This document shows positions 8,420-60,624 of a stretch of 64,000 nt of DNA, piece by piece. The translations under genes were made by a program, and so were the position numbers. Where the stretch lies: the NCBI GenBank assembly GCA_963555825.3, contig CAUVXB020000002.1, forward strand, positions 128,001 through 192,000, given 5' to 3'. The notes beneath the pieces are model-generated. The model searched no databases. It was given only the letters and a program-made list of their open reading frames with translations, and was not told the origin of the DNA. The first letter of the stretch is position 1, and every line of letters begins with the position of its first letter. The stretch comes from Alphaproteobacteria bacterium (GTDB lineage Bacteria > Pseudomonadota > Alphaproteobacteria > JAAXGF01).

Positions 8420-8704
8420 CCGGTGACCTCGGTGCCGCCCGCCGCGTAGAGCAGGCCGGCGACGGCGTGGCCGTCCGCGGTGACATAGAGGCTGTAGCCC
8501 GCGCCTCCGCCGGCGTGACGAAGTACCCTCGAGCACACCCCGTGCGCCGAGAAGGAGGATGTCCGCGCCTCTGGCGCGCAGCGCCGAGACCAGACCGGGC
8601 TCCTCCCCGCCGCCCGCGGCGCATATGGGGACGGCGAGACTGACCACGGTGACGCTAACGGCGAGCAGGCTCGCCGCAGCCGGGCGATGACAGGACCGTT
8701 TCAT
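8420..8704 (-). pseudogene. N-terminal fragment of a DsbG/DsbC-like periplasmic protein, frameshifted
   Basis: Signal-like MKRSCHRPAAASLLAVSV, then GVLEGYFVTP and YSLYVTADGHAVAGLLY; no CxxC domain remains. Confidence 0.45.
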
Positions 8705-8985
8705 CGAGCCTTCTCCTCCCCGGTGCGGTCGCTCAGCCGGTGCGTCACGACCAGCGCAGCCTCTCCCTCCGCCCGGGCGGCGACGGGCGGGTGCGGCAAA
8801 TGGGCCAGCCCACGGAACAGCGCCTGCACCGCGTCCATGAACCCGCCTTCGAAGGCCGCCGCCGCTTCCAGCCGGTAGCGCCGGTCGGTCAGGAACAGGA
8901 CGTCGACACCTGCCCTCCCGCCCCAGCGAGCCAGCGCGGCCCGCAGCATCTCGCCTTCCCGGACCCGCCATGGCTCTCGGCCGGG
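8701..8985 (-). pseudogene. TcpQ-like domain (type IVb pilus assembly), probably 5'-truncated
   Basis: WRVREGEMLRAALARWGGRAG..YRLEAAAAFEGGFMDAVQALF. Confidence 0.6.
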
Positions 8986-51548: not shown

Positions 51549-52926
51549 GAGCTATGTCCGAAAGTTGGTGACGGAGCTATCAGGCGGCGTGTTTGGTTAT
51601 CTTGATTCCGTCCTTGAACGGCACTCCTTCGACGAGTTCGGCGAGTTGATTTGATCCGTCCAGCTTCCGCCATTTCCGCCTGGCACTCAAGATCAGTTTG
51701 AAGGCCATGGCGAGCGCCGTCTTGCGGCTCAGGCACCCCTTGGTCTTCACGGTCCTCAGGCGCACCGTGGCGAAGGTGCTTTCGATGGGGTTGGTGGTGC
51801 GGATGTGCTTCCAGTGCTCGGCCGGGAAGTCGTAGAAGCTCAGCAGGCGTTCACGGTCCTTGACCAGGCGCTCTGCGGCCTTGTGGTATTTTGCGCCGTA
51901 GGCTGCGATGAAGAAGTCGAAGGCGGCTTCGGCGTCGGCCCTAGTCTCGGCCATCCAGATGTCGTGCAGATGGCCCTTGGCTTTGGCCTGCAGGGATTTG
52001 GGCATCTGGTTGAGCACGTTGGCGGTCTTGTGGACCCAGCAACGCTGCACCCTGGTCTCTCCGTAAACCTCGCGTAGCGCCTTCCAGAAGCCCAAGGCGC
52101 CGTCGCCGACGGCCAACTCGGGGCCGGTCTCCAAGCCCCGGCGCTTGAGATCAAGCAGCAGTTCCTTCCAGCTTTGCGCGCTCTCTCGATAACCGTCGAC
52201 CATGCCGACGATGTCCTTGTTGCCCATGGCGTCGGCGCCGATGATCACCAGAACACACTGTTTGTCATGGTCCATGCGAGGCGAGAAGTAGACCCCGTCG
52301 GCCCAAAAATAGACGTAGCGCCGAGCCGAAAGGTCGCGCTTTTGCCAGGCTTCGTATTCGTCCCACCAGACCGCTTTCAGCCGGCCAATGGTGCTGGCCG
52401 TCAGGCCCGGCGCGTCCGGTCCCAGCAGCGCCGCCAGGGCCTCCGAAAAGTCGCCGCTGGAGATGCCCTTCAGATAAAGCCAGGGCAGAAGCGCCTCGAC
52501 CGACTTGGCGCGCCTGAGATAAGGCGGCAGGATCGATGACGTGAAACGGATGCGCCCGCCCGTGGCCTGTGGATCTCGGTCTCGCACTCTTGGCCGCTTC
52601 ACCGTCACAGCTCCGATCCCGGTCTGAACCTCGCGTTCCGGCATGTGCCCGTGACGGACAATACGGCGCCGGCCCGAAGCGTCGGTCAAATCGGCATGGG
52701 CTTCAATATGGGCGGCAACTTCCGCTTCAATCGCCTGGCCAAGCAACTGCCGGGCGCCGGCGCGCAATATCTCCGTCAGCGGATCGTCGGAAAATGACTC
52801 TGGCTGGCGCAACGCAACAACTGTATCGTCTTTCATGGCGTATCCCTTTCTTCGGAAAATTGGCGTCTTCATCAACGCCAGGATACGCCGCCTTCATTCT
52901 CCATCACCAAGATTCAGCTATAGCTC
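51549..52926 (-). mobile_element. IS256-family element, intact; transposase 51580-52836
   Basis: GAGCTAT ends, 9-bp TSD GGCCTTCAA; WADGVY, GDGALGFW, QRCWVHK, RTTNPIES. Confidence 0.95.
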
Positions 52927-52994
52927 GGCCTTCAATATGGCGTGGCACTATGCCTTGGACGTGCGCAGCGAAGCGGACAGCTATTTCTGTGAGA

Positions 52995-54414
52995 TGTATC
53001 GCACCCGGTTCCTTGGACACAAGTTTGTCTCATGCGGCGGGCCTGAGTGACATCGCGGTGTGCCACGCCTGACGAGCTTGAGCGGGGCTCAGGTAGCCGT
53101 TCTTCTCCACGATCCACTGGGCATTGTACTGTTCGACGAACCCGCGGACGGCGTTCCGCAGCTCCGCGATGTTGCGGTAGATGCGGCCATGGATGATCTG
53201 TTCCTTGAGCGTGCGATTGAACCTCTCGGCGACGCCGTTGGTCTGGGGCTGTTCGACGAAGGCGTAGGACGGCTGGATGCCCCAGAACTTGATCTGGTTG
53301 GTGAAGTGGTCCGACAGATACTGGGAGCCGTGATCCATCCGCAAGGCCAGCCCCCGCGCCGCACCGGCGGAGGTCGAGGCATACAGCCTCGCAAGCCCCA
53401 TGGAGATCGGCTGAAGGGCGGCGAAGCGGTCGCCTCGCTTGCACACATGCCAGCCGACGCACTCGGCGTTCCAATGCTCGATGGCGGTGAATATCCAGCC
53501 CCAGCCGTCGTCCACCGTGAACACCCGAACGCCGTCCGTGCCCCACATGAGGTTGGGGGCATGGGTGATGATCTCACCGACATGGGGATTTCCGCCACGG
53601 CGGCGGCAGCGATGGGGCGAGAGCAGGTTGTTCTCGCGCATCACCCGGAGCCCCCGCTTGCGGGAAACACGGATGCCACGACAGACCCGAAGCCGAGCCC
53701 AGACCTTGCGGTGTCCCTCGCCCTCCCAGGGGGATGCCTCCAGGTCGGCCTCGATGGCCACCAGCAGAGCCTCGTCCGAGATCGAGGGCTTCGGTCCCCG
53801 GCGCTTTGCTGGTGGGCGCTCAGCGGTGGCCTGCTGCCGGGATTTCATGGCGTAGAACGAGGAACGGGCAAAACCCCAGGCCGCACAGACCCGCTGGAGG
53901 CCGTAGGCCAAACCCGTGCCGGGAGAGGTGGCGGCACTCATCGCCGCGACCTCCGCCGCCCCAAAGGGCCGGACGTCTCCGTCTTGGCCTCCAGCAGTTC
54001 CACCTGCATGATCAACTCCCCGATCCGCTTCATGGCGATGTCCAGTTCCGCCTTCACCGGATCGCCCTTGCGTTCCTTGAGCGAGGCATCGATCCCGGCG
54101 ATCGCCTTCTCACGCCACTGCTCGAGCCGGAAAATCTCCACGCCCAACTGCCGCGACAAAAGTTCCACCGGCTCGCCACGCAAAAGCCGCAGGGCAACCT
54201 CACGCTTGCGCGTCACCGTCCACCGCTGGCCAAGTCCCAGCGGGCCTGCCGGCGAAACCTGGCCCGGGGAAAACGTGGACGAGCCAAGCTCGCCCTCGTT
54301 TACCACAGGCCCATCAACAGCAACTTTGTTCTCAAAATTGTCGGTCATGTTCCGGTCCTCCTTGGACACTTCGATTAAGCCAATTCTGTGTCCAAGGAAA
54401 TCGGGTCCGACTCA
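52995..54414 (-). mobile_element. 1420-bp two-ORF DDE element with 14-bp TSD, copy 2
   Basis: Inverted near-identical copy of 43200-44619; TSD CTATTTCTGTGAGA at 52981-52994 and 54415-54428. Confidence 0.93.
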
Positions 54415-55865
54415 CTATTTCTGTGAGAAAACCCTGCGCAACTATCGCCGTCTGTTTATCGAACAAGGTCTCGATGAATTGCTGTTCCGGTGTTTGACGG
54501 ATCGGCTGGTGCAGGGGTTCTCTGTCGATACCAGCCACCAACGCATGGATTCGACGGCCCTTCGTTCGGCAATGCGGGCGCTGACACGACTTGGTATCGT
54601 TGTTGAGAGCATCTCGAAGTTTGCCCGTGAGCTTGAGCGATATCATCCCGGTCTGCACGAGCAGATCAGCAAGGAGGTGATCCGCCGCTATGTCGATCGC
54701 GAGGGTAATGGCGCGTTCGCGAATACGGCGCCGAGTGTTTCAAAACGGCGCCTCGGCGAAGCGGGTCAGTATCTCCTAGCCCTGGTGCTGCAATTCCGTG
54801 ACACGGCGGCGGCAAAGCTTTTCAGTTTTGCGATCCTGGAGAGGGTTCTGCGCGATCAGTTCGAGATCGTTGATGATGAGTATGGCGATCGTGACGCAAC
54901 GCGCGCCGCGATTCGAGATCCAAAGGATGTGCCGTGCGATACCGTCGGCAATCCGGCCGACCCGGACGCGAGCTACAACGCGCACAAGGGTCAAGGATAC
55001 ATGGCGCAGATCGTCGAAACCTATTGTGAAGATGTCAGTAACGAGGCGGTTGCCGCGACACCGGACCTCATCACCCACGTGGAGGTCCACAAGATGACGG
55101 TGCATGACGGCCATCGCTTAGCCGATGCGCTGGATGATCTGAGCGAGCGCGCGCTGACGCCGGCGGTGATGCTGGGTGATTCACATTACGGTTCCAGTGA
55201 CAACATGGCTCTGACGCGCGAACAGAACATCAATCTCGTGGCGCCCGCACGACCGCCGAAAGGCGCCGTCTCGGGACGGTTGACGTTGGAGGATTTCACT
55301 CTCAACGAAGAAGGCTTGGTCTTGCGCTGTCCCAATAACGTCGAACCGGTTTCAGCCTCGCTCGCCAAAGCCAAGCTGCAGGCCCGTTTCGACCTCTCCA
55401 TCTGCCAAAAATGTCCCGATATACTGCGATGTCCCGTGCAGGCGGCCAAGCGTGACGGCCAATTTTCCCGCTTTCAATATACCCCGGCCAGGGCTGCCAA
55501 CCAAAAGCGCCGGCTTTATGAACAAAGCGATGCCTTCCGCAACGTCTACAGATGGCGGGCCGGCATAGAAGCGACCATGTCGCGATTAAAGTACCAGATG
55601 AACCTGGCTCACCTACGCATTCGCGGCATGCCGGCCATGCGCTACGTGGTCAATCTGCGTGCCCTCGGCCTCAATATCCGACGCTGCGCGGCAATCGCAC
55701 CATAAAAAACGAAGCCAAGGAGAAGCCAAGGGTAGGTAATATCAGGTTTTATCCACCAGCAACGCGGAGACAGGCAAATATTCTTCACCGAACCGCAAAG
55801 ACCTGTACAAGCACGCCATCGGCCAACAACTTTTTACCGCCCCGTCAACTTTTGACAATAGCTCC

Positions 55866-56006
55866 AGACCATTTGGAACAGAGCTCAGCCTGCGCTCAGA
55901 GTTCAGGTACTACGTCGTCTGGCCTAAGCGTACAGTACCGGAGTTCGTCGATCACTTTCGAAACTGGGTTTTGGCAGAGTTTTCAAATCAGACCGGGTTC
56001 CGGTGA
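55866..56006 (+). pseudogene. C-terminal remnant of a LysR (GcvA-type) regulator
   Basis: RPFGTELSLRSEFRYYVVWPKRTVPEFVDHFRNWVLAEF..* directly after the IS256 end. Confidence 0.6.
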
Positions 56007-56429
56007 CGGACTCTACTCAGTTTTGGAGGAAATTATCCTGGGCGTCTAAACCGACCCAGGTGGGTGGTGGGCCCGGCGACGAACGAGCCGACGACCAGCC
56101 CGATCACCATCACGGTGACGACCAGCCAGCTCGCTAGATGATCGGTCGACTTCATGACAAACACAACTACAGCCTGGCGCCCGAAGGGTGTCGTGCCTTC
56201 CCGGCGCCACAAGTTGTCACCCCACGCCAAGGCATTTGGTGCTGGCGTTCCCAGTCGTAGAGGGCCCCGCGTTCACGGTAGCGCCGGTCAGAATCACATG
56301 TTGGTGAGGCTACCCCGATTGCGCCCCACAACCGGCCCGCGGCACGAAATTGACGTTGCATTGGGCGGCGGGGCCGACTAGATCGACAGGGGATCAGCCG
56401 CGCGAAGTGAACAACGAGGGTGAATTTCC

Positions 56430-57134
56430 GTGGTCGACGTTCGAGAATTGCCGCGTCAGGAACTCGAAGGCATGCTCGCCGCCGGCGAGGACATCGTGGA
56501 GTGGTACCGCGTGCTGCAAAAGACCGGCGACAATATCGTCGGCGAGGTGCTGCGCGATCAGGGCAAGTTTTACGAATGGAACCACTACCCGAAGGGCGAC
56601 GTCTACGACAACGAAACCCATTCACAACATTTCTATCACGCCCACCCGACCGACCAGCGGGACGGCGAGCACGGCCATTTTCACACCTTCCTGCGCGCCA
56701 AGGGCATGCCCAAGGGCATCAAGCCTGCGCCCTACGACGGCGACGTCGAGTGGCCCAAGGGCAACGACGCCCTGAGCCACCTGATCGGCATCTCGATGGA
56801 TCGCAAGGGGTTTCCCATCGCGCTGTTCACCACCAACCGCTGGGTCACCGGCGAGGCCTGGTATGTCATGGATGACGTCCTTGCCATGGTCGAACGCTTC
56901 GACATCGACCACGCACGCCCGTCGTGGCCGGTGAACCGCTGGATCACCGCAATGGTCCGCTTGTACCGCCCCGACATCCGTGAGCTGATCGTGGCGCGCG
57001 ACGCCGCCGTCGAGGCGTGGCGCGCACATCACCCGGACCGCGACGTCTTCGAGGACCGCGAGTTCGAGATCGCCTCGCGTCAGAAGATTTCGGTCGACAA
57101 GAGAATCGCCGAAGTGCGGGCGGCACTCAGATAA
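56430..57134 (+). CDS. Conserved His-motif hypothetical protein (DUF6969-like)
   Basis: EWNHYPKGDVYD, FYHAH, EHGHFHTFLR, LSHLIGISMD, LFTTNRWVTGE; strong GC3 bias; family name from recognition, not a search. Confidence 0.8.
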   Translation: MVDVRELPRQELEGMLAAGEDIVEWYRVLQKTGDNIVGEVLRDQGKFYEWNHYPKGDVYDNETHSQHFYHAHPTDQRDGEHGHFHTFLRAKGMPKGIKPAPYDGDVEWPKGNDALSHLIGISMDRKGFPIALFTTNRWVTGEAWYVMDDVLAMVERFDIDHARPSWPVNRWITAMVRLYRPDIRELIVARDAAVEAWRAHHPDRDVFEDREFEIASRQKISVDKRIAEVRAALR

Positions 57135-57227
57135 GCGCCGCCCGCACCCCGGTCGAGGAGAACGCCGTCTCGCTTGGGGGGACGGGCGAAGGCGGCGTCA
57201 CCTGGCGAACGGACTAGCGCGGAATCC

Positions 57228-57488
57228 CTAGTTCGACGTCGCCGCGCAGGGATTGCAGGGATTGCAAGCCGACGCCGCACAAGGATTGCACGGGTTGCAC
57301 GCGCTCGCGGCGCAGGGGTTGCACGCGGCGCACGGGTTGCACGGATTCGACGCCGCGCAGGGATTGCACGGATTACACGCACCGCAGACGGCCGCTGCCG
57401 GCGCGCATGTGGCATGCGCCGGAACGGCGACCGCGGTAACCGCGAATCCGGCCATGCCGGCGGCGGCGAGTAGTTTCTTAACCGACAT
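57228..57488 (-). CDS. Secreted Cys-rich (NPC)n peptide; native 5' codons displaced to 60594-60609 by two ISs
   Basis: [23 protein letters not shown] signal peptide, then a 60-aa mature region with 15 Cys and 9 NPC motifs; repeats vary at synonymous positions. Confidence 0.82.
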
Positions 57489-59123
57489 TCCCCATATACC
57501 ATCCAAATTCGTGGAAATCGTACCACTTTCCCACCGCCAAGGGAACTGTATCCCCTATGCAGCCATCCGATGGCATGATTTTGGTAATCGGCCCGCGCTT
57601 GGAAGGCCACTCGGTCATTTTTCTCGCCATCCAGACACACCTCTCCTGTCGCTTTCTCCTCGCCGTCGATTCCCTCGGCCTACGCCGGAGCGGGTCTTCG
57701 TCGCAGATCATCAATCAAGCTCAGGATTTTCCGGAACAGGTCCCTCGGCACCGCCACCTCAGCCAATTGGAACGTAACGTAGCGGCCATGTCGGACAACC
57801 TTGGCCCCGATCTTCACCAGCTTGTCGCGCAACGTCGTCATCGACCAGTGCTCCACCTCCTTCGGCAAAGCCAGTGTCCTCATGAAGTTGCCCAGATTGT
57901 AGGCCAGGGCGTGAAGCTGGAGCCGAACGGCATTGTTGCGGAACTTGCGACATGACAGACGGGTCCAGTTGATGGCGTTCTTGCCTTCCTTGATGTGCTG
58001 CTCCGCCGTGCCACGGTGATTATAGAACGCCACCACCCGCTTGGTAGGGCGCGACAGATTAGTGACGATGAAACCGACGCGAGGAACCAGCTCGCCGGGG
58101 TGCCACTCCACTTTGGCCACGACACGGCGCTTCTTGTTCCACGATCCGGCCTGATAGCTGAAGCTGGCGTGGAAACGGCGAACATGGTCGGGCGGGCGAC
58201 CGACAGGTCGCGTAAGCAGATGGGCAATGTTCCGCTGGAGAATCGCGTTCGCTTTGAGGCGGATGACGTAGAGTAATCCCTCGGCTTCGAGATATTCGTA
58301 TATCTCCGGTGAGGCGAAGGCGGCATCGCCACGAAAATACAGCCGCACCTTCCTTTCCTTATAGCGCATCACCACCGGCTCCAGAACATTCCGCCATCCG
58401 TCGGCACTGTGAACATTACCGGGGCGCAGGGAACATCTCTCCAAGTCGCCGAACTGGTTGAACAGGAATAGCGGATGCTAGCAGGTACAGCCGAAGTGAC
58501 CATTGTACGCTGTTCCCTCTTGTTCGCCATGGGTCGGGCTGACGCTGCTGTCCATGTCGAGAATGATCATCTTCGGCGGATGGCGGTCATGAACCTTGTC
58601 GATCCACACCCCGTTCATGTCGACCAAGGCTTCAACGTTCTCGTCGGTGGCCAATAGCTCCGTCTCGAAGCGTCCCATCTGGCTGGTGGAAGCGGCCTGT
58701 CTTTCGATGGCCTTGCCGCCAACAATCCAGCGCATGGCGGGATCGCGTCCCAGACGGTCGGCGTCGTTCACATCGTCATAGCCGCCAAGGCGCCCGAAAA
58801 CGGACTGGCGAAACTGACCCGTCATGCCGTGCCATCCGTTCTTGCCGGTACGGCTATCCTGGAAAACACCCTCGGCCATCTCAGTCAGGCCGAGGGCATC
58901 GTCAAGCTCCCGGTAGGCGAGCAACCCGGCATCAGAGGTGATCTTGGAACCGTGGAATTCAAGCTTCAATCGACGGTCAAAAACGACCCGAAGGCACCCC
59001 GGTTTCGATTCACCCATCGGGTGTGCCATATCCGCCGCTCCATGTATGCTACAACTTCATGATTCTTATAGCAGAATCGCCTTCTCGCCGCACTGAATAT
59101 CGACGATACTTGGGAAATGCGGG
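57482..59123 (-). mobile_element. IS1380-family element; transposase 57680-59029 has one internal stop
   Basis: IRs CCGACATTCCCCA / CCCGCATTTCCCA, 5-bp TSD CTTAA; ITSDAGLL, LDMDSS, GCTC*HPLFLF (TAG at 58478), RGDAAF, YNHRGTAEQHIKE. Confidence 0.92.
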
Positions 59124-59128
59124 CTTAA

Positions 59129-60589
59129 CAGCCCGTTGATTAAGTGGCTTTTTCCGGCTCTCACTCCCAGATGAGGAATGCGGCGGCGAAAACCGTCTGG
59201 CCGCTTTGCGAGACCCCCAGTGCGACCAGCATGGCCCCGGTGGGCGTGAGCAGCACGAAAATACCGCCATATCCGCCCGCCACGGCCTCGCGCGGGGTGC
59301 CGGCGCCGATGAGTTGGCGCATCAGCAACGATAGGTTGTGGCCGGCGACGTGGAGCAGGTATCGCTTGTGCACGTTCTCGCGGCCCCGAAGCCAGGTCCG
59401 GCGCATGCCGCCGCGATCGAGGTTGTGGGCGAAGGAGCGCTCGACGATCTCGGCGCGCAGCTTGAAGGCTTGCTTGGCCACCCCCGATAACAGCCGGGTC
59501 CGGTTGTTGGTGACCGCGCGCCGCGCCGCCTCGTCGCCGCGCCAGCGCGCGAAGCCCTTCTGCTTGGGCTCGGCGATCCGGGTCTTCCACGGGCCGTTGT
59601 CCAAGGCCTTCAAGACCGCCCGTGAGTGATAGCCTTTGTCGGTCACACATTCGGCCGGGTCCTCTGCCGTCGGCGCCGCGTCAACGCTCGCAAGGTTCTC
59701 CTTGGCCGTCTCCAACGTTTTGGGAAGCGTCGTCGTGTCGCCCTCGTCGGCCGGGTGCAGCTCGGCGGCCACCACCGCGCCGGTGTCCAGATCCACCGCG
59801 TGCTCGGGCTTGTAGGCCAGATGCGTCGTGCCGTCCTTCATCTTGGCGATCTTGGCCTCGGGGTCGCTCTTCGAAACCCAGTCCTCGTTGGAAAGCTTCT
59901 TGCCCTTGCGCTTGCGGTCCAGACGCGCCAGGTCCTCGGCCGTGGGCGTCTCGATGCCGCTCTCCCGGGCCAGGTGCTCCAGCATCTCCCGGTAGCCTTC
60001 ACCCGTGTCGCGCCGCACGATGTTGCGCAGCGCCGCGTTGGCCTCCATGGTCGAGGCATCCACCCCGATGCGCTCGCCCTTCACCAGACCCGCCTCGCCG
60101 ATCAAGGCCAGAACCCAGTCGAAGACCGCCGCGTGGACTTCATGGGGCAGGCGCGCGCGGGTCTTCGACAGCCAGGAATGGTCCGGCACCCGCTCACGGC
60201 TCCCCAGTCGCAGGAACTCCCGCAGCGACAGGGAATCCGAGCAACGCCACTCCAGACCGCGCTCTGAGTCGATGCCCTCGAAGTAGCCCACCAGGTGCAT
60301 GCGGAAATAGCGCCCGGGCGGCACCGAGGGCGCGCCCATCCTGGCCGCGTAATAGGGCCGGCAGCTCGCCTCGGCAAAGGCGTCGAAGCCGCCCTCGATC
60401 AGCACCGACTGCAGGCGGTCGTAAAACACATGACCCGGCGAGCGCGGCATCTCCGCCCAGCCCACCATCAAGTCCCCCTGACGATCCTTCTGCTGTCCCA
60501 TCGCCATCGGCGAATCCTCCGGTCAAATCAGAACATCAAAGAATCAGACCAGGCCGCTTGCGTCCAGTGCCGACTTCGTCAACGGGCTG
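59129..60589 (-). mobile_element. IS1182/IS5-like element, intact; transposase 59161-60507
   Basis: IR CAGCCCGTTGA, TSD TTAA (59125-59128 and 60590-60593); PDHSWLS, VDASTMEANAA, DKGY, RAEIVERSFAH. Confidence 0.9.
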
Positions 60590-60593
60590 TTAA

Positions 60594-60624
60594 ACAATGA
60601 CATAGGCATTTGGAATGTCTCCTT
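60594..60624 (-). promoter_or_regulatory. Orphaned RBS and first codons of the NPC-peptide gene
   Basis: AAGGAG-9 nt-ATG CCT ATG TCA TTG TTT; joins in frame to AAG AAA CTA CTC at 57481 once both ISs are removed. Confidence 0.8.

What the first reader, a model, noticed from the sequence alone, without database searches (positions are those of the whole stretch)
56430..57488. Secreted (NPC)n 15-Cys peptide paired with a His-motif DUF6969-like protein: candidate metal-binding or RiPP-like system
Seen: a signal peptide followed by [60 protein letters not shown] (15 Cys, CxxCxxC spacing), convergent with a 234-aa protein carrying H-Y-P, HAH and HGHFH motifs. Known: Cys-rich exported precursors modified by His/Fe-dependent enzymes exist (MNIO/DUF692 systems such as bufferins), and most characterised bacterial metallothioneins are cytoplasmic. 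Inference: this could be an exported metallothionein-like peptide, or a precursor matured by the neighbouring putative metalloenzyme. I know of no described function for the pair.
Basis: partly seen in the sequence, partly recalled or inferred. Interest (0 to 1): 0.78.

Follow-up and report, generated by a model that had tools for sequence, protein, structure and literature searches.

The report
Exported cysteine-repeat peptide with DUF6969 partner
A gene for a secreted peptide built of repeated Asn-Pro-Cys units lies beside a histidine-rich protein of unknown function, a pairing kept in many bacteria and still unexplained, although in this genome the peptide gene has been cut by two jumping genes.

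Summary
56430..57134(+) is a full-length DUF6969 protein (PF22308, E 3.7e-88). Convergent to it, 57488..57228(-) is an 86-codon ORF with a signal-like N-terminus, 15 Cys and 9 Asn-Pro-Cys (NPC) units.

Two facts are new:
- **The peptide gene is broken.** Two nested IS elements (57483..59123 and 59129..60589) cut it after codon 6. Its ribosome-binding site and first six codons now lie at 60622..60592, and the present ATG is IS sequence.
- **The pair is a fragment of a widespread gene neighbourhood I found no paper on.** It combines DUF6969, a periplasmic FGE-fold protein and NPC-repeat proteins, often with a small cytochrome c and a rhodanese. The NPC-repeat proteins are free peptides, lipoproteins, or arrays on cytochrome P460 and SoxA/TsdA-type cytochromes.

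The linkage is strong. NPC-repeat ORFs lie within 2.5 kb of DUF6969 in 39 of 80 loci, about 130 times denser than further out. Of 49 genomes with NPC repeats, 47 have DUF6969, but 44 of 91 DUF6969 genomes lack NPC repeats.

The high-confidence DUF6969 model matches no solved structure. The genome has no MNIO or DUF2063 gene, so this is not a bufferin system.

My best inference is that NPC arrays are periplasmic thiol arrays that depend on a cytoplasmic His-cluster metalloprotein. This is untested.

The parts
56430..57134 (+). Intact DUF6969 gene, 234 aa. It has no signal peptide and no Cys, and carries seven family-invariant His (52, 70, 72, 81, 83, 85, 117).
   Evidence: PF22308 at E 3.7e-88, model positions 2-201 of 201. 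Invariant columns come from a 20-sequence alignment. The AF2 model has pLDDT 90.8 and pTM 0.90.
57228..57488 (-). Present 86-codon ORF of the NPC-repeat peptide plus its stop codon. Bases 57228..57482 are the native gene body; 57483..57488 (ATG and the next codon) are IS sequence.
   Evidence: Translation. IS boundary and CTTAA duplication from 25 other copies. 555 short homologues at E<=0.01.
60590..60622 (-). Displaced native 5' end of the peptide gene: GGAGA (60622-60618), ATG (60609-60607), codons MPMSLF, and the TTAA target (60593-60590) that splits the next codons.
   Evidence: Sequence, translation and 4-bp duplications at 9 other copies of the IS. The N-terminus resembles homologues.
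57483..59123 (-). IS element 1. Its terminal repeat starts CCGACATT, the 5-bp target duplication CTTAA lies at 57478-82 and 59124-28, and the transposase ORFs are 57680..58444 and 58478..59029.
   Evidence: Flanks of 25 other full-length copies, the blastn table and the ORF list.
59129..60589 (-). IS element 2. Its ends are CAGCCCGTTGA...TCAACGGGCTG, the 4-bp duplication TTAA lies at 59125-28 and 60590-93, and the transposase ORF is 59161..60507.
   Evidence: Flanks of 9 other copies; blastn table.
57109..57152 (.). Hairpin with a 20-bp stem (14 G-C pairs) between the convergent genes, overlapping the DUF6969 stop codon. It looks like a terminator for the peptide strand.
   Evidence: Consensus scan only.
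54415..55866 (.). IS copy that bounds the unique segment on the left. The unique DNA runs from about 55867 to 57482.
   Evidence: blastn against the whole genome.

Best explanation
SHOWN:
- The window holds an intact gene for a cytoplasmic, Cys-free, His-cluster protein of family DUF6969. Its confident model matches no solved structure.
- Tail to tail with it lies the body of a gene for a Sec-type exported peptide made of Asn-Pro-Cys repeats. Two successive IS insertions separated this body from its first six codons, ribosome-binding site and promoter.
- The two gene families are linked across Alpha-, Beta- and Gammaproteobacteria. They usually occur with a periplasmic FGE-fold protein that has an invariant CGxC, and often with a small cytochrome c and a rhodanese.
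- The same NPC repeats also occur as arrays on cytochrome P460 and on SoxA/TsdA-type c cytochromes.

INFERRED:
- NPC arrays are periplasmic thiol arrays that bind soft metals and/or are redox-active. They work free or tethered to haem enzymes.
- They depend on DUF6969, which I read as a His/Asp/Glu-ligated metalloprotein. It would act on the unfolded precursor in the cytoplasm before Sec export, by modifying or guarding the Cys in its invariant N-P-C context. The FGE-fold protein would act after export.
- This is the logic of MNIO/bufferin systems carried out with unrelated parts.
- In this genome the peptide copy is probably crippled. Three other NPC-repeat genes remain elsewhere in the genome.
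For: Family and fold:
- Family assignment.
- AF2 model pLDDT 90.8, with no Foldseek hit at E<=0.001 and a best VIA-align Z of 3.5.
- 23 invariant polar residues, 7 of them His, at 65% mean column identity over 20 sequences. This looks like an active site.

Linkage in space:
- 39 of 80 DUF6969 loci have an NPC-repeat ORF within 2.5 kb.
- There are 55 such ORFs in 366,317 bp near DUF6969 against 1 in 862,753 bp further out.
- In the own genome, one of only 4 NPC ORFs lies 94 bp from the single DUF6969 gene.

Linkage across 401 genomes of the class:
- 36 of 37 genomes with the CNPC pattern have DUF6969, and 44 of 45 with three or more NPCx3 hits do. The union is 47 of 49, against a base rate of 91 of 401.
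- In five families sampled in both states (f4, f7, f44, f128, f129), the member without DUF6969 also lacks NPC repeats.
- The FGE subfamily shows the same dependence: 32 of 33 genomes with it have DUF6969.

Other support:
- Gene order and orientation vary, and the label changes at least 9 to 13 times on the DUF6969 tree. The linkage is therefore kept by selection and is not one inherited arrangement.
- N-P-C is the invariant unit even where there is one Cys per repeat (NPCAAK). That fits recognition by an enzyme better than plain chelation.
- All forms have signal peptides, lipoboxes or signal anchors.
- Haem-enzyme fusions: 70 of the best 120 longer homologues carry P460 and 14 carry the SoxA/TsdA domain (Pfam checks).
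Against: - 44 of 91 DUF6969 genomes show no NPC repeats. This count includes the unpublished genome G251.
- Azospirillum-type loci have DUF6969 between MlaD/ABC-auxiliary genes and DUF2336, with no Cys-rich ORF nearby.
- NPC-linked and NPC-free DUF6969 do not separate on the tree. DUF6969 therefore has a role beyond these peptides.
- In the window the two genes are convergent and so are not one operon.
- None of the 30 most widespread neighbour clusters, nor the clusters enriched at NPC loci, looked like a protease, dedicated exporter or leader-type element, judged by reading the representative sequences. Only seven representatives were scanned against Pfam.
- NPC arrays sit inside large enzymes, which is unusual for RiPP precursors.
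- Two of the 150 best DUF6969 representatives are fused to coiled coil, a membrane helix and SH3_3. This hints at a scaffold or signalling role.
- No metal binding, modification or interaction has been measured.
Confidence: 0.4

Rival explanations
1. Plain periplasmic metallothionein. The NPC peptides bind Cu(I), Zn or Cd through unmodified thiolates. DUF6969 would not be a maturase but a cytoplasmic metal sensor, buffer or chaperone for the same metal, which would explain why it also occurs without the peptides.
For: - Cys density and CxxC spacing.
- DUF6969 is His-rich and Cys-free.
- DUF6969 occurs in 44 genomes without NPC repeats.
- The FGE fold family includes copper enzymes (recalled knowledge; PDB relatives).
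Against: - None of the neighbour clusters I read looked like a copper or heavy-metal transporter or regulator.
- Asn-Pro is as invariant as Cys, and some arrays have one Cys per unit.
- Neither protein hits any Pfam model other than DUF6969 above cut-off, so no metallothionein model matched.
- The fusions are to haem enzymes, not to metal-handling domains.
Confidence: 0.25
2. Thiol arms for haem enzymes. The NPC cysteines carry or exchange sulfur or nitrogen species or electrons, as SoxY's cysteine does for SoxAX. They would serve the attached or neighbouring P460 and SoxA/TsdA-type cytochromes, with cytochrome c as electron acceptor and rhodanese as sulfur transferase.
For: - Fusion partners: P460 in 70 of 120 and SoxA/TsdA in 14 of 120 (Pfam checks).
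- Cytochrome c is present in 13 of 30 NPC loci and rhodanese in 8 of 30.
- The own-genome locus is cyt c, rhodanese, NPC-P460, FGE.
- L034, L036 and L040 have GCG/CGAC-rich arrays reminiscent of SoxY's GGCGG (the SoxY motif is recalled).
Against: - Cytochrome c and rhodanese are only mildly enriched (7 of 37 and 6 of 37 in NPC-free loci).
- No other sox genes appeared among the clusters I read.
- This reading does not explain the cytoplasmic DUF6969.
- The free peptides have no enzyme attached.
Confidence: 0.2
3. Structural repeat. The NPC arrays would be disulfide-stapled hinges, stalks or a cross-linked periplasmic matrix, like antibody hinges or cornified-envelope proteins. The tie to DUF6969 would reflect a shared mobile neighbourhood rather than biochemistry.
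For: - The arrays lie between signal anchors or lipoboxes and catalytic domains.
- LysM co-occurs in 23 of 120 longer homologues.
- There are weak cornifin-model hits.
- A clade of Beta- and Gammaproteobacterial loci nested among alphaproteobacterial ones suggests transfer as a block.
Against: - Genome-level co-occurrence holds even where the genes are on different contigs or far apart, which was the case in 10 of the 30 genomes compared.
- Gene order is shuffled repeatedly while the linkage is kept.
Confidence: 0.1
4. Bufferin/MNIO-type RiPP in the strict sense.
For: A Sec-type signal peptide on a Cys-rich precursor is the hallmark of bufferin precursors (passages of PMC12452194).
Against: - PF05114 gave 0 hits and PF09836 gave 0 hits in a genome that is 99.3% complete.
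- The precursor hits no DUF2282 or Buf model.
- The MNIO survey text has 0 occurrences of CNPC, NPC, P460 or DUF6969.
Confidence: 0.02

Closest known systems
Bufferins and oxazolins (MNIO/DUF692-modified RiPP metallophores)
   Same: Both have Cys-rich precursors with Sec signal peptides. In both, a cytoplasmic non-haem metalloenzyme is thought to act before export, some precursors are long proteins, and the products are periplasmic (abstract and passages of PMC12452194; listing of 10.1101/2024.03.18.585515).
   Different: There is no MNIO and no DUF2063 partner in this genome. DUF6969 has an unrelated fold that matches no solved structure. The repeat unit is N-P-C, up to dozens per protein, and it is often fused to haem enzymes. 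No chemistry is known.
Bacterial metallothioneins (SmtA/BmtA) and the exported copper storage protein Csp1
   Same: Many cysteines in a small protein. Csp1 sets a precedent for an exported Cys-rich metal store (recalled knowledge).
   Different: The peptide hits no Pfam model at all, so no metallothionein or Csp model matched. The sequence is low-complexity repeats rather than a zinc-finger-like fold or a four-helix bundle. Export looks Sec-type rather than cytoplasmic or Tat. The partner genes are conserved.
SoxY carrier with SoxAX cytochrome
   Same: An exposed cysteine on a flexible Gly/Ala-rich arm works with a SoxA-type cytochrome. Here NPC arrays flank a SoxA/TsdA cytochrome c domain.
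   Different: No SoxY model matched, and the window peptide lacks the C-terminal GGCGG. There are many cysteines rather than one, and no other sox genes appeared in the neighbourhood clusters I read.
Formylglycine-generating enzyme and its CxPxR substrates
   Same: An FGE-fold protein with two invariant Cys is the most enriched neighbour, in 24 of 30 NPC loci against 9 of 37 NPC-free loci. CNPC has Cys and Pro in the FGE register.
   Different: There is no Arg at +4. Single-Cys NPCAAK repeats lack the C-x-P register. The nearest solved relatives are ToxD, CalU17 and OvsA rather than FGE. Only 23 of 37 CNPC genomes have this FGE subfamily.

Membership tests
DUF6969 (PF22308) | Full-length match to the family HMM above the gathering score | tested here: met
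   294.8 bits against a cut-off of 27, model positions 2-201 of 201. It is the only copy in the genome.
DUF6969 (PF22308) | Conserved His motifs (HYP, HAH, EHGHFH) | tested here: met
   H52, P54, H70, H72, E80, H81, H83 and H85 are invariant in 20 sequences.
Bufferin / MNIO RiPP system | MNIO (DUF692, PF05114) enzyme encoded with the precursor | tested here: not met
   0 hits in the whole genome, which is 99.3% complete. The positive control matched.
Bufferin / MNIO RiPP system | DUF2063-type partner protein | tested here: not met
   PF09836 gave 0 hits in the genome.
Bufferin / MNIO RiPP system | Precursor of a Buf family (DUF2282, Buf_6/12_Cys, EGKCG) | tested here: not met
   No Pfam or NCBIfam hit for the peptide at E<=1.
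Bufferin / MNIO RiPP system | Cys-containing precursor with a Sec signal peptide | tested here: met
   The native N-terminus is MPMSLF, then two Lys, a hydrophobic core and AHA before Thr-Cys. This was judged by eye; no signal-peptide predictor was available.
Bacterial metallothionein | Match to a metallothionein family model | tested here: not met
   The peptide hits no Pfam model at all at E<=1.
Bacterial metallothionein | Stoichiometric binding of Zn, Cd or Cu by thiolate clusters | not testable with these tools
   This needs purified peptide and metal analysis.
FGE substrate | C-x-P-x-R motif | tested here: not met
   The units are CNPC followed by Ala or Asn, and NPCAAK. None has Arg at +4.
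SoxY-type sulfur carrier | C-terminal GGCGG arm and linkage to the sox cluster | tested here: not met
   The peptide ends CAATSN. The neighbour clusters I read show no sox genes. The motif definition is recalled.
Cupin metalloenzymes (considered for DUF6969) | Double-stranded beta-helix fold | tested here: inconclusive
   The model has about six strands plus helices. No cupin appears among the VIA-align rows and the best Z is 3.5. A missing match does not exclude the fold.

The most novel reading that the evidence does not exclude
DUF6969 founds a new class of metalloenzyme, with a fold that matches no solved structure. In the cytoplasm it rewrites or protects the cysteine of Asn-Pro-Cys motifs in Sec substrates. 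A periplasmic FGE-fold protein finishes the job. The result is a previously unknown thiol-derived metal-binding or redox cofactor array that bacteria attach to cytochrome P460 and SoxA-type enzymes or release as free peptides.
Probability: 0.2. Interest if true: 0.9.

Novelty: new variant of a known kind. Interest (0 to 1): 0.7.

Why it matters
- If the inference holds, it would be a second, independent solution to the bufferin problem of modifying or handling a Cys-rich Sec substrate before export, built from unrelated proteins.
- It would give a first functional handle on DUF6969, which has 1119 clusters at 50% identity in public data.
- It would define a recognisable motif, N-P-C, that marks hundreds of hypothetical exported proteins.
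- It would show that many marine and symbiont cytochrome P460 and SoxA/TsdA-like enzymes carry dense thiol arrays. That bears on how these enzymes handle hydroxylamine, NO or sulfur species.
- Cultured carriers exist (Denitrobaculum tricleocarpae, L075; Pelagibius sp., L107), so the question can be tested directly.
- For this genome the finding also shows an IS storm cutting a gene while leaving an open, possibly transcribed, chimeric ORF.

Tried and rejected
- **Co-fold of DUF6969 with the peptide:** no verdict, score 0.00. It counts neither for nor against binding.
- **Fold searches with the DUF6969 model:** Foldseek against PDB gave 0 hits at E<=0.001. VIA-align against 48,161 chains gave a best Z of 3.5.
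- **Profile against PDB sequences:** only a chance-level row at E 0.63.
- **ESM Atlas:** returned only DUF6969 clusters.
- **PADLOC:** nothing.
- **Rfam on 55800..57650:** nothing.
- **Sigma-70 promoter scan:** 0 sites.
- **P460-like domain of the own genome against PDB sequences:** no hit at E<=1. I therefore could not check the Lys cross-link.
- **RNA cover:** no contig of the four RNA runs lay on 55922..56348.
- **Ideas dropped:**
  - DUF6969 as a cupin: neither the secondary structure nor the fold search supports it.
  - NPC as a haem-attachment site: there is no His after the CxxC.
  - NPC as a haem-regulatory Cys-Pro motif: the order is Pro-Cys.
  - FGE motif as the general recognition element: there is no Arg, and the single-Cys repeats lack the register.
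  - The C1 and C2 loci as two halves of one split locus: both keep a copy of the same 200-bp segment at about 75-80% identity, so they are paralogous.
Full report
**1. What is at the coordinates**

- ORF 56430..57134(+) encodes 234 aa and matches Pfam DUF6969 end to end (E 3.7e-88, 294.8 bits against a cut-off of 27). NCBIfam has no model for it.
- It is the only DUF6969 in the genome, which is 6.04 Mb in 2 contigs and 99.3% complete. The window is C2:128001-192000.
- The open frame is only 236 aa, so there is no room for a signal peptide. The protein has no cysteine.
- I aligned it with 19 relatives, taken from the 23 places after leaving out three partial matches. The invariant columns include H52, P54, D57, D60, Q66, Y69, H70, H72, E80, H81, H83, H85, R89 and H117. 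Mean column identity is 65%.
It hits no Pfam, NCBIfam or PADLOC model.

**2. More than chance**

- NPC occurs 658 times in 12.08 million six-frame residues of this genome. The ORF has 9 in 60 residues.
- Only four ORFs in the genome have five or more NPC.
- Tandem Repeats Finder sees imperfect periods of 9, 18, 27 and 33 bases.
- The units differ at synonymous positions (Asn AAT 6 / AAC 4; Pro CCG 5 / CCC 4 / CCT 1). The other five frames are Arg/Gly-rich junk. The peptide frame is therefore the conserved one.
- The same holds in other genomes, where the matched DNA varies mostly at third positions.

**3. The peptide gene is broken**

- The genome is full of near-identical IS copies. The stretch 52.5-60.6 kb consists of IS elements, apart from about 55867..57482.
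- Flanks of 25 other full-length copies define IS element 1 as 57483..59123, with a 5-bp target duplication. Here that duplication is CTTAA, at 57478-82 and 59124-28.
- Flanks of 9 other copies define IS element 2 as 59129..60589, with a 4-bp duplication. Here it is TTAA, at 59125-28 and 60590-93.
- Directly beyond IS 2, the minus strand reads GGAGA, eight bases, then ATG and the codons MPMSLF. The TTAA target then continues in frame into the Lys-Lys-Leu-Leu of the gene body.
- This N-terminus resembles those of the nearest homologues.
- IS 2 therefore landed in codons 6-7, and IS 1 then landed on the junction. The present ATG (57488-86) is IS 1 terminal-repeat sequence.
- Contigs from RNA libraries of sponge metatranscriptomes lie over the gene body in 3 of the 4 runs laid, from two studies: 56905-57507, 57072-57505 and 57127-57481.
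- These are assembled contigs. They show neither strand nor start, and DNA carry-over cannot be excluded. I treat this as a weak hint that the chimeric ORF region is still transcribed.

**4. The pairing is conserved**

- *Near relatives.* 7 of the 19 full-length DUF6969 loci, each with only 1.5 kb of flank, have an NPC-repeat ORF beside the gene.
- *Named public contigs.* A scan returned 80 loci with up to 10 kb on each side.
  - My first motif filter missed DUF6969 in 13 of them. I added those by their listed coordinates.
  - Of the 80 loci, 39 have an ORF with at least 3 NPC and at least 6 Cys within 2.5 kb.
  - There are 55 such ORFs in 366,317 bp near DUF6969 against 1 in 862,753 bp further out.
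  - Order and orientation vary. The window's convergent form accounts for 6 of the 55.
- *Even sample of 401 genomes of the class.*
  - The strict pattern (two CNPC within 24 bases) is present in 37 genomes; the backwards control hit one genome.
  - DUF6969 is present in 91.
  - 36 of the 37 pattern-positive genomes have DUF6969. The exception, G093, is 79% complete.
  - A looser pattern (three NPC) has three or more hits in 45 genomes, and 44 of them have DUF6969. One or two hits are noise: the backwards control hit 5 genomes, and several single hits are plain DNA repeats.
  - The union is 49 genomes, of which 47 have DUF6969.
  - In five families sampled in both states (f4, f7, f44, f128, f129), the member without DUF6969 also lacks the repeats.
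  - Of 30 genomes that have both and whose places were listed, at least 20 have them within 2.5 kb. I made this comparison by hand.
- *The converse does not hold.* 44 of the 91 DUF6969 genomes show no NPC signal. This count includes the unpublished genome G251.

**5. What else belongs to the neighbourhood**

I clustered ORFs within 6 kb of DUF6969 in 67 loci. The 13 late additions were not included.

| Neighbour | Loci (of 67) | In NPC loci (of 30) | In NPC-free loci (of 37) | Source |
|---|---|---|---|---|
| Exported FGE-sulfatase-fold protein, directly upstream on the same strand | 33 | 24 | 9 | |
| Small class-I cytochrome c | 20 | 13 | 7 | |
| Exported rhodanese | 14 | 8 | 6 | |
| DUF2336, downstream | 27 | - | - | |

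- The FGE-fold proteins are 56-73% identical to the copy in this genome and share an invariant KGGSWDDxGCGxCR. That alignment used 29 of the 33 cluster members plus the own-genome copy.
- Their nearest solved relatives are ToxD, CalU17, OvsA and pFGE, not FGE proper.
- This FGE subfamily is in 33 of the 401 genomes. 32 of those have DUF6969, and 23 are among the 37 CNPC genomes. DUF6969 is thus the hub on which both depend.
- Azospirillum-type loci read MlaD, ABC-auxiliary lipoprotein, DUF6969, DUF2336, with no Cys-rich ORF.

**6. The NPC repeat is a module, not only a peptide**

- Short homologues: 555 at E<=0.01. None of the 120 listed has a Pfam domain, and those with a source name are all called hypothetical.
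- Longer homologues: 737 at E<=1e-5. The best 120 break down as follows (my count from the table):

| Domain content | Count |
|---|---|
| Cytochrome P460 (17 of these also carry LysM) | 70 |
| SoxA/TsdA cytochrome c domain | 14 |
| CCP_MauG only | 2 |
| LysM only | 6 |
| Cornifin model only | 1 |
| No Pfam domain | 27 |

- Pfam scans of examples confirm P460 and SoxA/TsdA. In L082 and L101 the repeats lie on both sides of the haem domain.
- Some members are lipoproteins or signal-anchored.
- The invariant unit is N-P-C. Beta- and gammaproteobacterial arrays are NPCAAK, with one Cys per unit. L034, L036, L040 and L077 add CGAC/GGCG arrays.
- The own genome keeps three more NPC genes. One is a 36-NPC array on a P460 domain at C1:2111139-2112794(-). 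It lies divergent from the FGE-fold gene and next to rhodanese and cytochrome c, and that locus is itself hit by IS630- and IS21-type elements.

**7. DUF6969 itself**

- The AF2 model is confident (pLDDT 90.8, pTM 0.90). It shows about six strands and long helices, and the His motifs sit on a beta-hairpin.
- It matches no solved structure in either fold search, nor by sequence profile.
- The family has 1119 clusters at 50% identity at E<=0.001, nearly all standalone proteins of 200-290 aa.
- Two of the 150 best are fused to a coiled coil, one membrane helix and an SH3_3 domain. This places DUF6969 on the cytoplasmic side.
- I built a tree of 77 rows (the window plus 76 loci). Four loci were dropped because my motif filter did not find the EHGHFH string.
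- On this tree the label 'NPC ORF within 2.5 kb' needs 13 changes, at least 9 of them forced by well-supported branches.
- The association is therefore not the property of one subfamily. A clade of Beta- and Gammaproteobacterial loci, all NPC-positive, sits nested among alphaproteobacterial loci.

**8. Reading**

- Shown: the two families are functionally tied; NPC proteins are exported; DUF6969 is cytoplasmic; the tie is asymmetric, since NPC needs DUF6969 but not the reverse.
- Inferred: DUF6969 is a His/Asp/Glu metalloprotein that handles these Cys-rich Sec substrates before export. NPC arrays act as periplasmic thiol arrays for soft metals or redox and sulfur chemistry, alone or on haem enzymes.
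- I give this 0.4. The rivals are a plain metallothionein with DUF6969 as a metal sensor or chaperone (0.25), thiol arms for the haem enzymes (0.2), a structural disulfide repeat (0.1), and true bufferin membership (0.02).
- Bufferin membership is excluded because the genome has no MNIO and no DUF2063 gene.

**9. Literature**

- Full-text searches found 0 papers for 'DUF6969'.
- They found 0 for 'CNPC' with 'cytochrome P460', 0 for 'formylglycine-generating enzyme' with 'cytochrome P460', and 0 for 'cytochrome P460' with 'cysteine-rich'.
- 'CNPC' with 'periplasm' gave 3 unrelated papers, judged from titles and abstract openings.
- For the MNIO survey PMC12452194 I saw the search listing and the passages returned by 'find'. 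The terms CNPC, NPC, P460 and DUF6969 occur 0 times in its main text. I did not look at its supplements, which could list minor precursor families.
- Subscription journals are outside the library searched.

Noticed in passing
window 52500..60600 and the whole genome: The genome is saturated with near-identical IS copies. The element at 52995..54414 alone has more than 100 copies at 99% identity or above. 52.5-60.6 kb of the window is five IS elements around 1.6 kb of unique DNA. The stretch is held in sponge metagenome and metatranscriptome runs, which fits a recently host-restricted symbiont.
   Followed up: partly
window 56033..56155 (-) and G000:C1:2113793 (-) = L112 about 8675..8794: These are two paralogous small ORFs with one hydrophobic helix (MKSTDHLASW... 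and MKFTDHFGSW...), plus about 100 bp of conserved upstream DNA at roughly 75-80% identity. One lies upstream of DUF6969 and the other just downstream of the FGE-fold gene. There are only these two copies in the genome, and none in the other loci.
   Followed up: partly
L112 (G000:C1:2105000-2120000): The other half of the canonical neighbourhood lies on contig 1. It reads TRAP transporter, universal stress protein, cytochrome c, IS630-type insertion, rhodanese, a P460 protein carrying 36 NPC units (-), the FGE-fold protein (+), then an IS21-type element where DUF6969 would be expected.
   Followed up: partly
G000:C1:817223-817561 (+) and G000:C2:2987400-2987762 (-): Two further NPC-repeat ORFs. 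The first has a lipobox (LATAGC) and 7 NPC. The second has 5 NPC followed by a non-repeat tail. I did not examine their neighbours.
   Followed up: no
L082:7739-8422, L101:8017-9000, L051:3990-4928, L071:1206-2033: In Beta- and Gammaproteobacteria, NPC arrays flank a single SoxA/TsdA-type cytochrome c domain on both sides.
   Followed up: partly
L100:3580-4272: An NPC array is fused to a C-terminal domain of about 100 aa with four Cys that hits no Pfam or NCBIfam model.
   Followed up: no
L034:7952-8920, L036, L040, L077: These are variant arrays rich in CGAC/GGCG units, mixed with CNPC...EEDPCNPC blocks. They also lie next to the FGE-fold and DUF6969 pair.
   Followed up: no
L057 13612..14157 (-) and five other NPC-positive loci: An exported protein of about 180 aa is found in 6 of 30 NPC loci and 0 of 37 NPC-free loci (cluster 46). 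By eye it looks cupredoxin-like. I did not scan it.
   Followed up: no
L066, L071, L053: Nearly identical DUF6969/NPC loci are filed under a Phycisphaerae MAG and a Salibacteraceae MAG, and another locus under a cyanobacterial assembly. On the tree they sit inside proteobacterial clades, which suggests binning or contamination errors.
   Followed up: no
P0262, P0310: These are rare fusions of DUF6969 to a long coiled coil, a membrane helix and a bacterial SH3 domain. P0310 has lost several of the His residues.
   Followed up: partly
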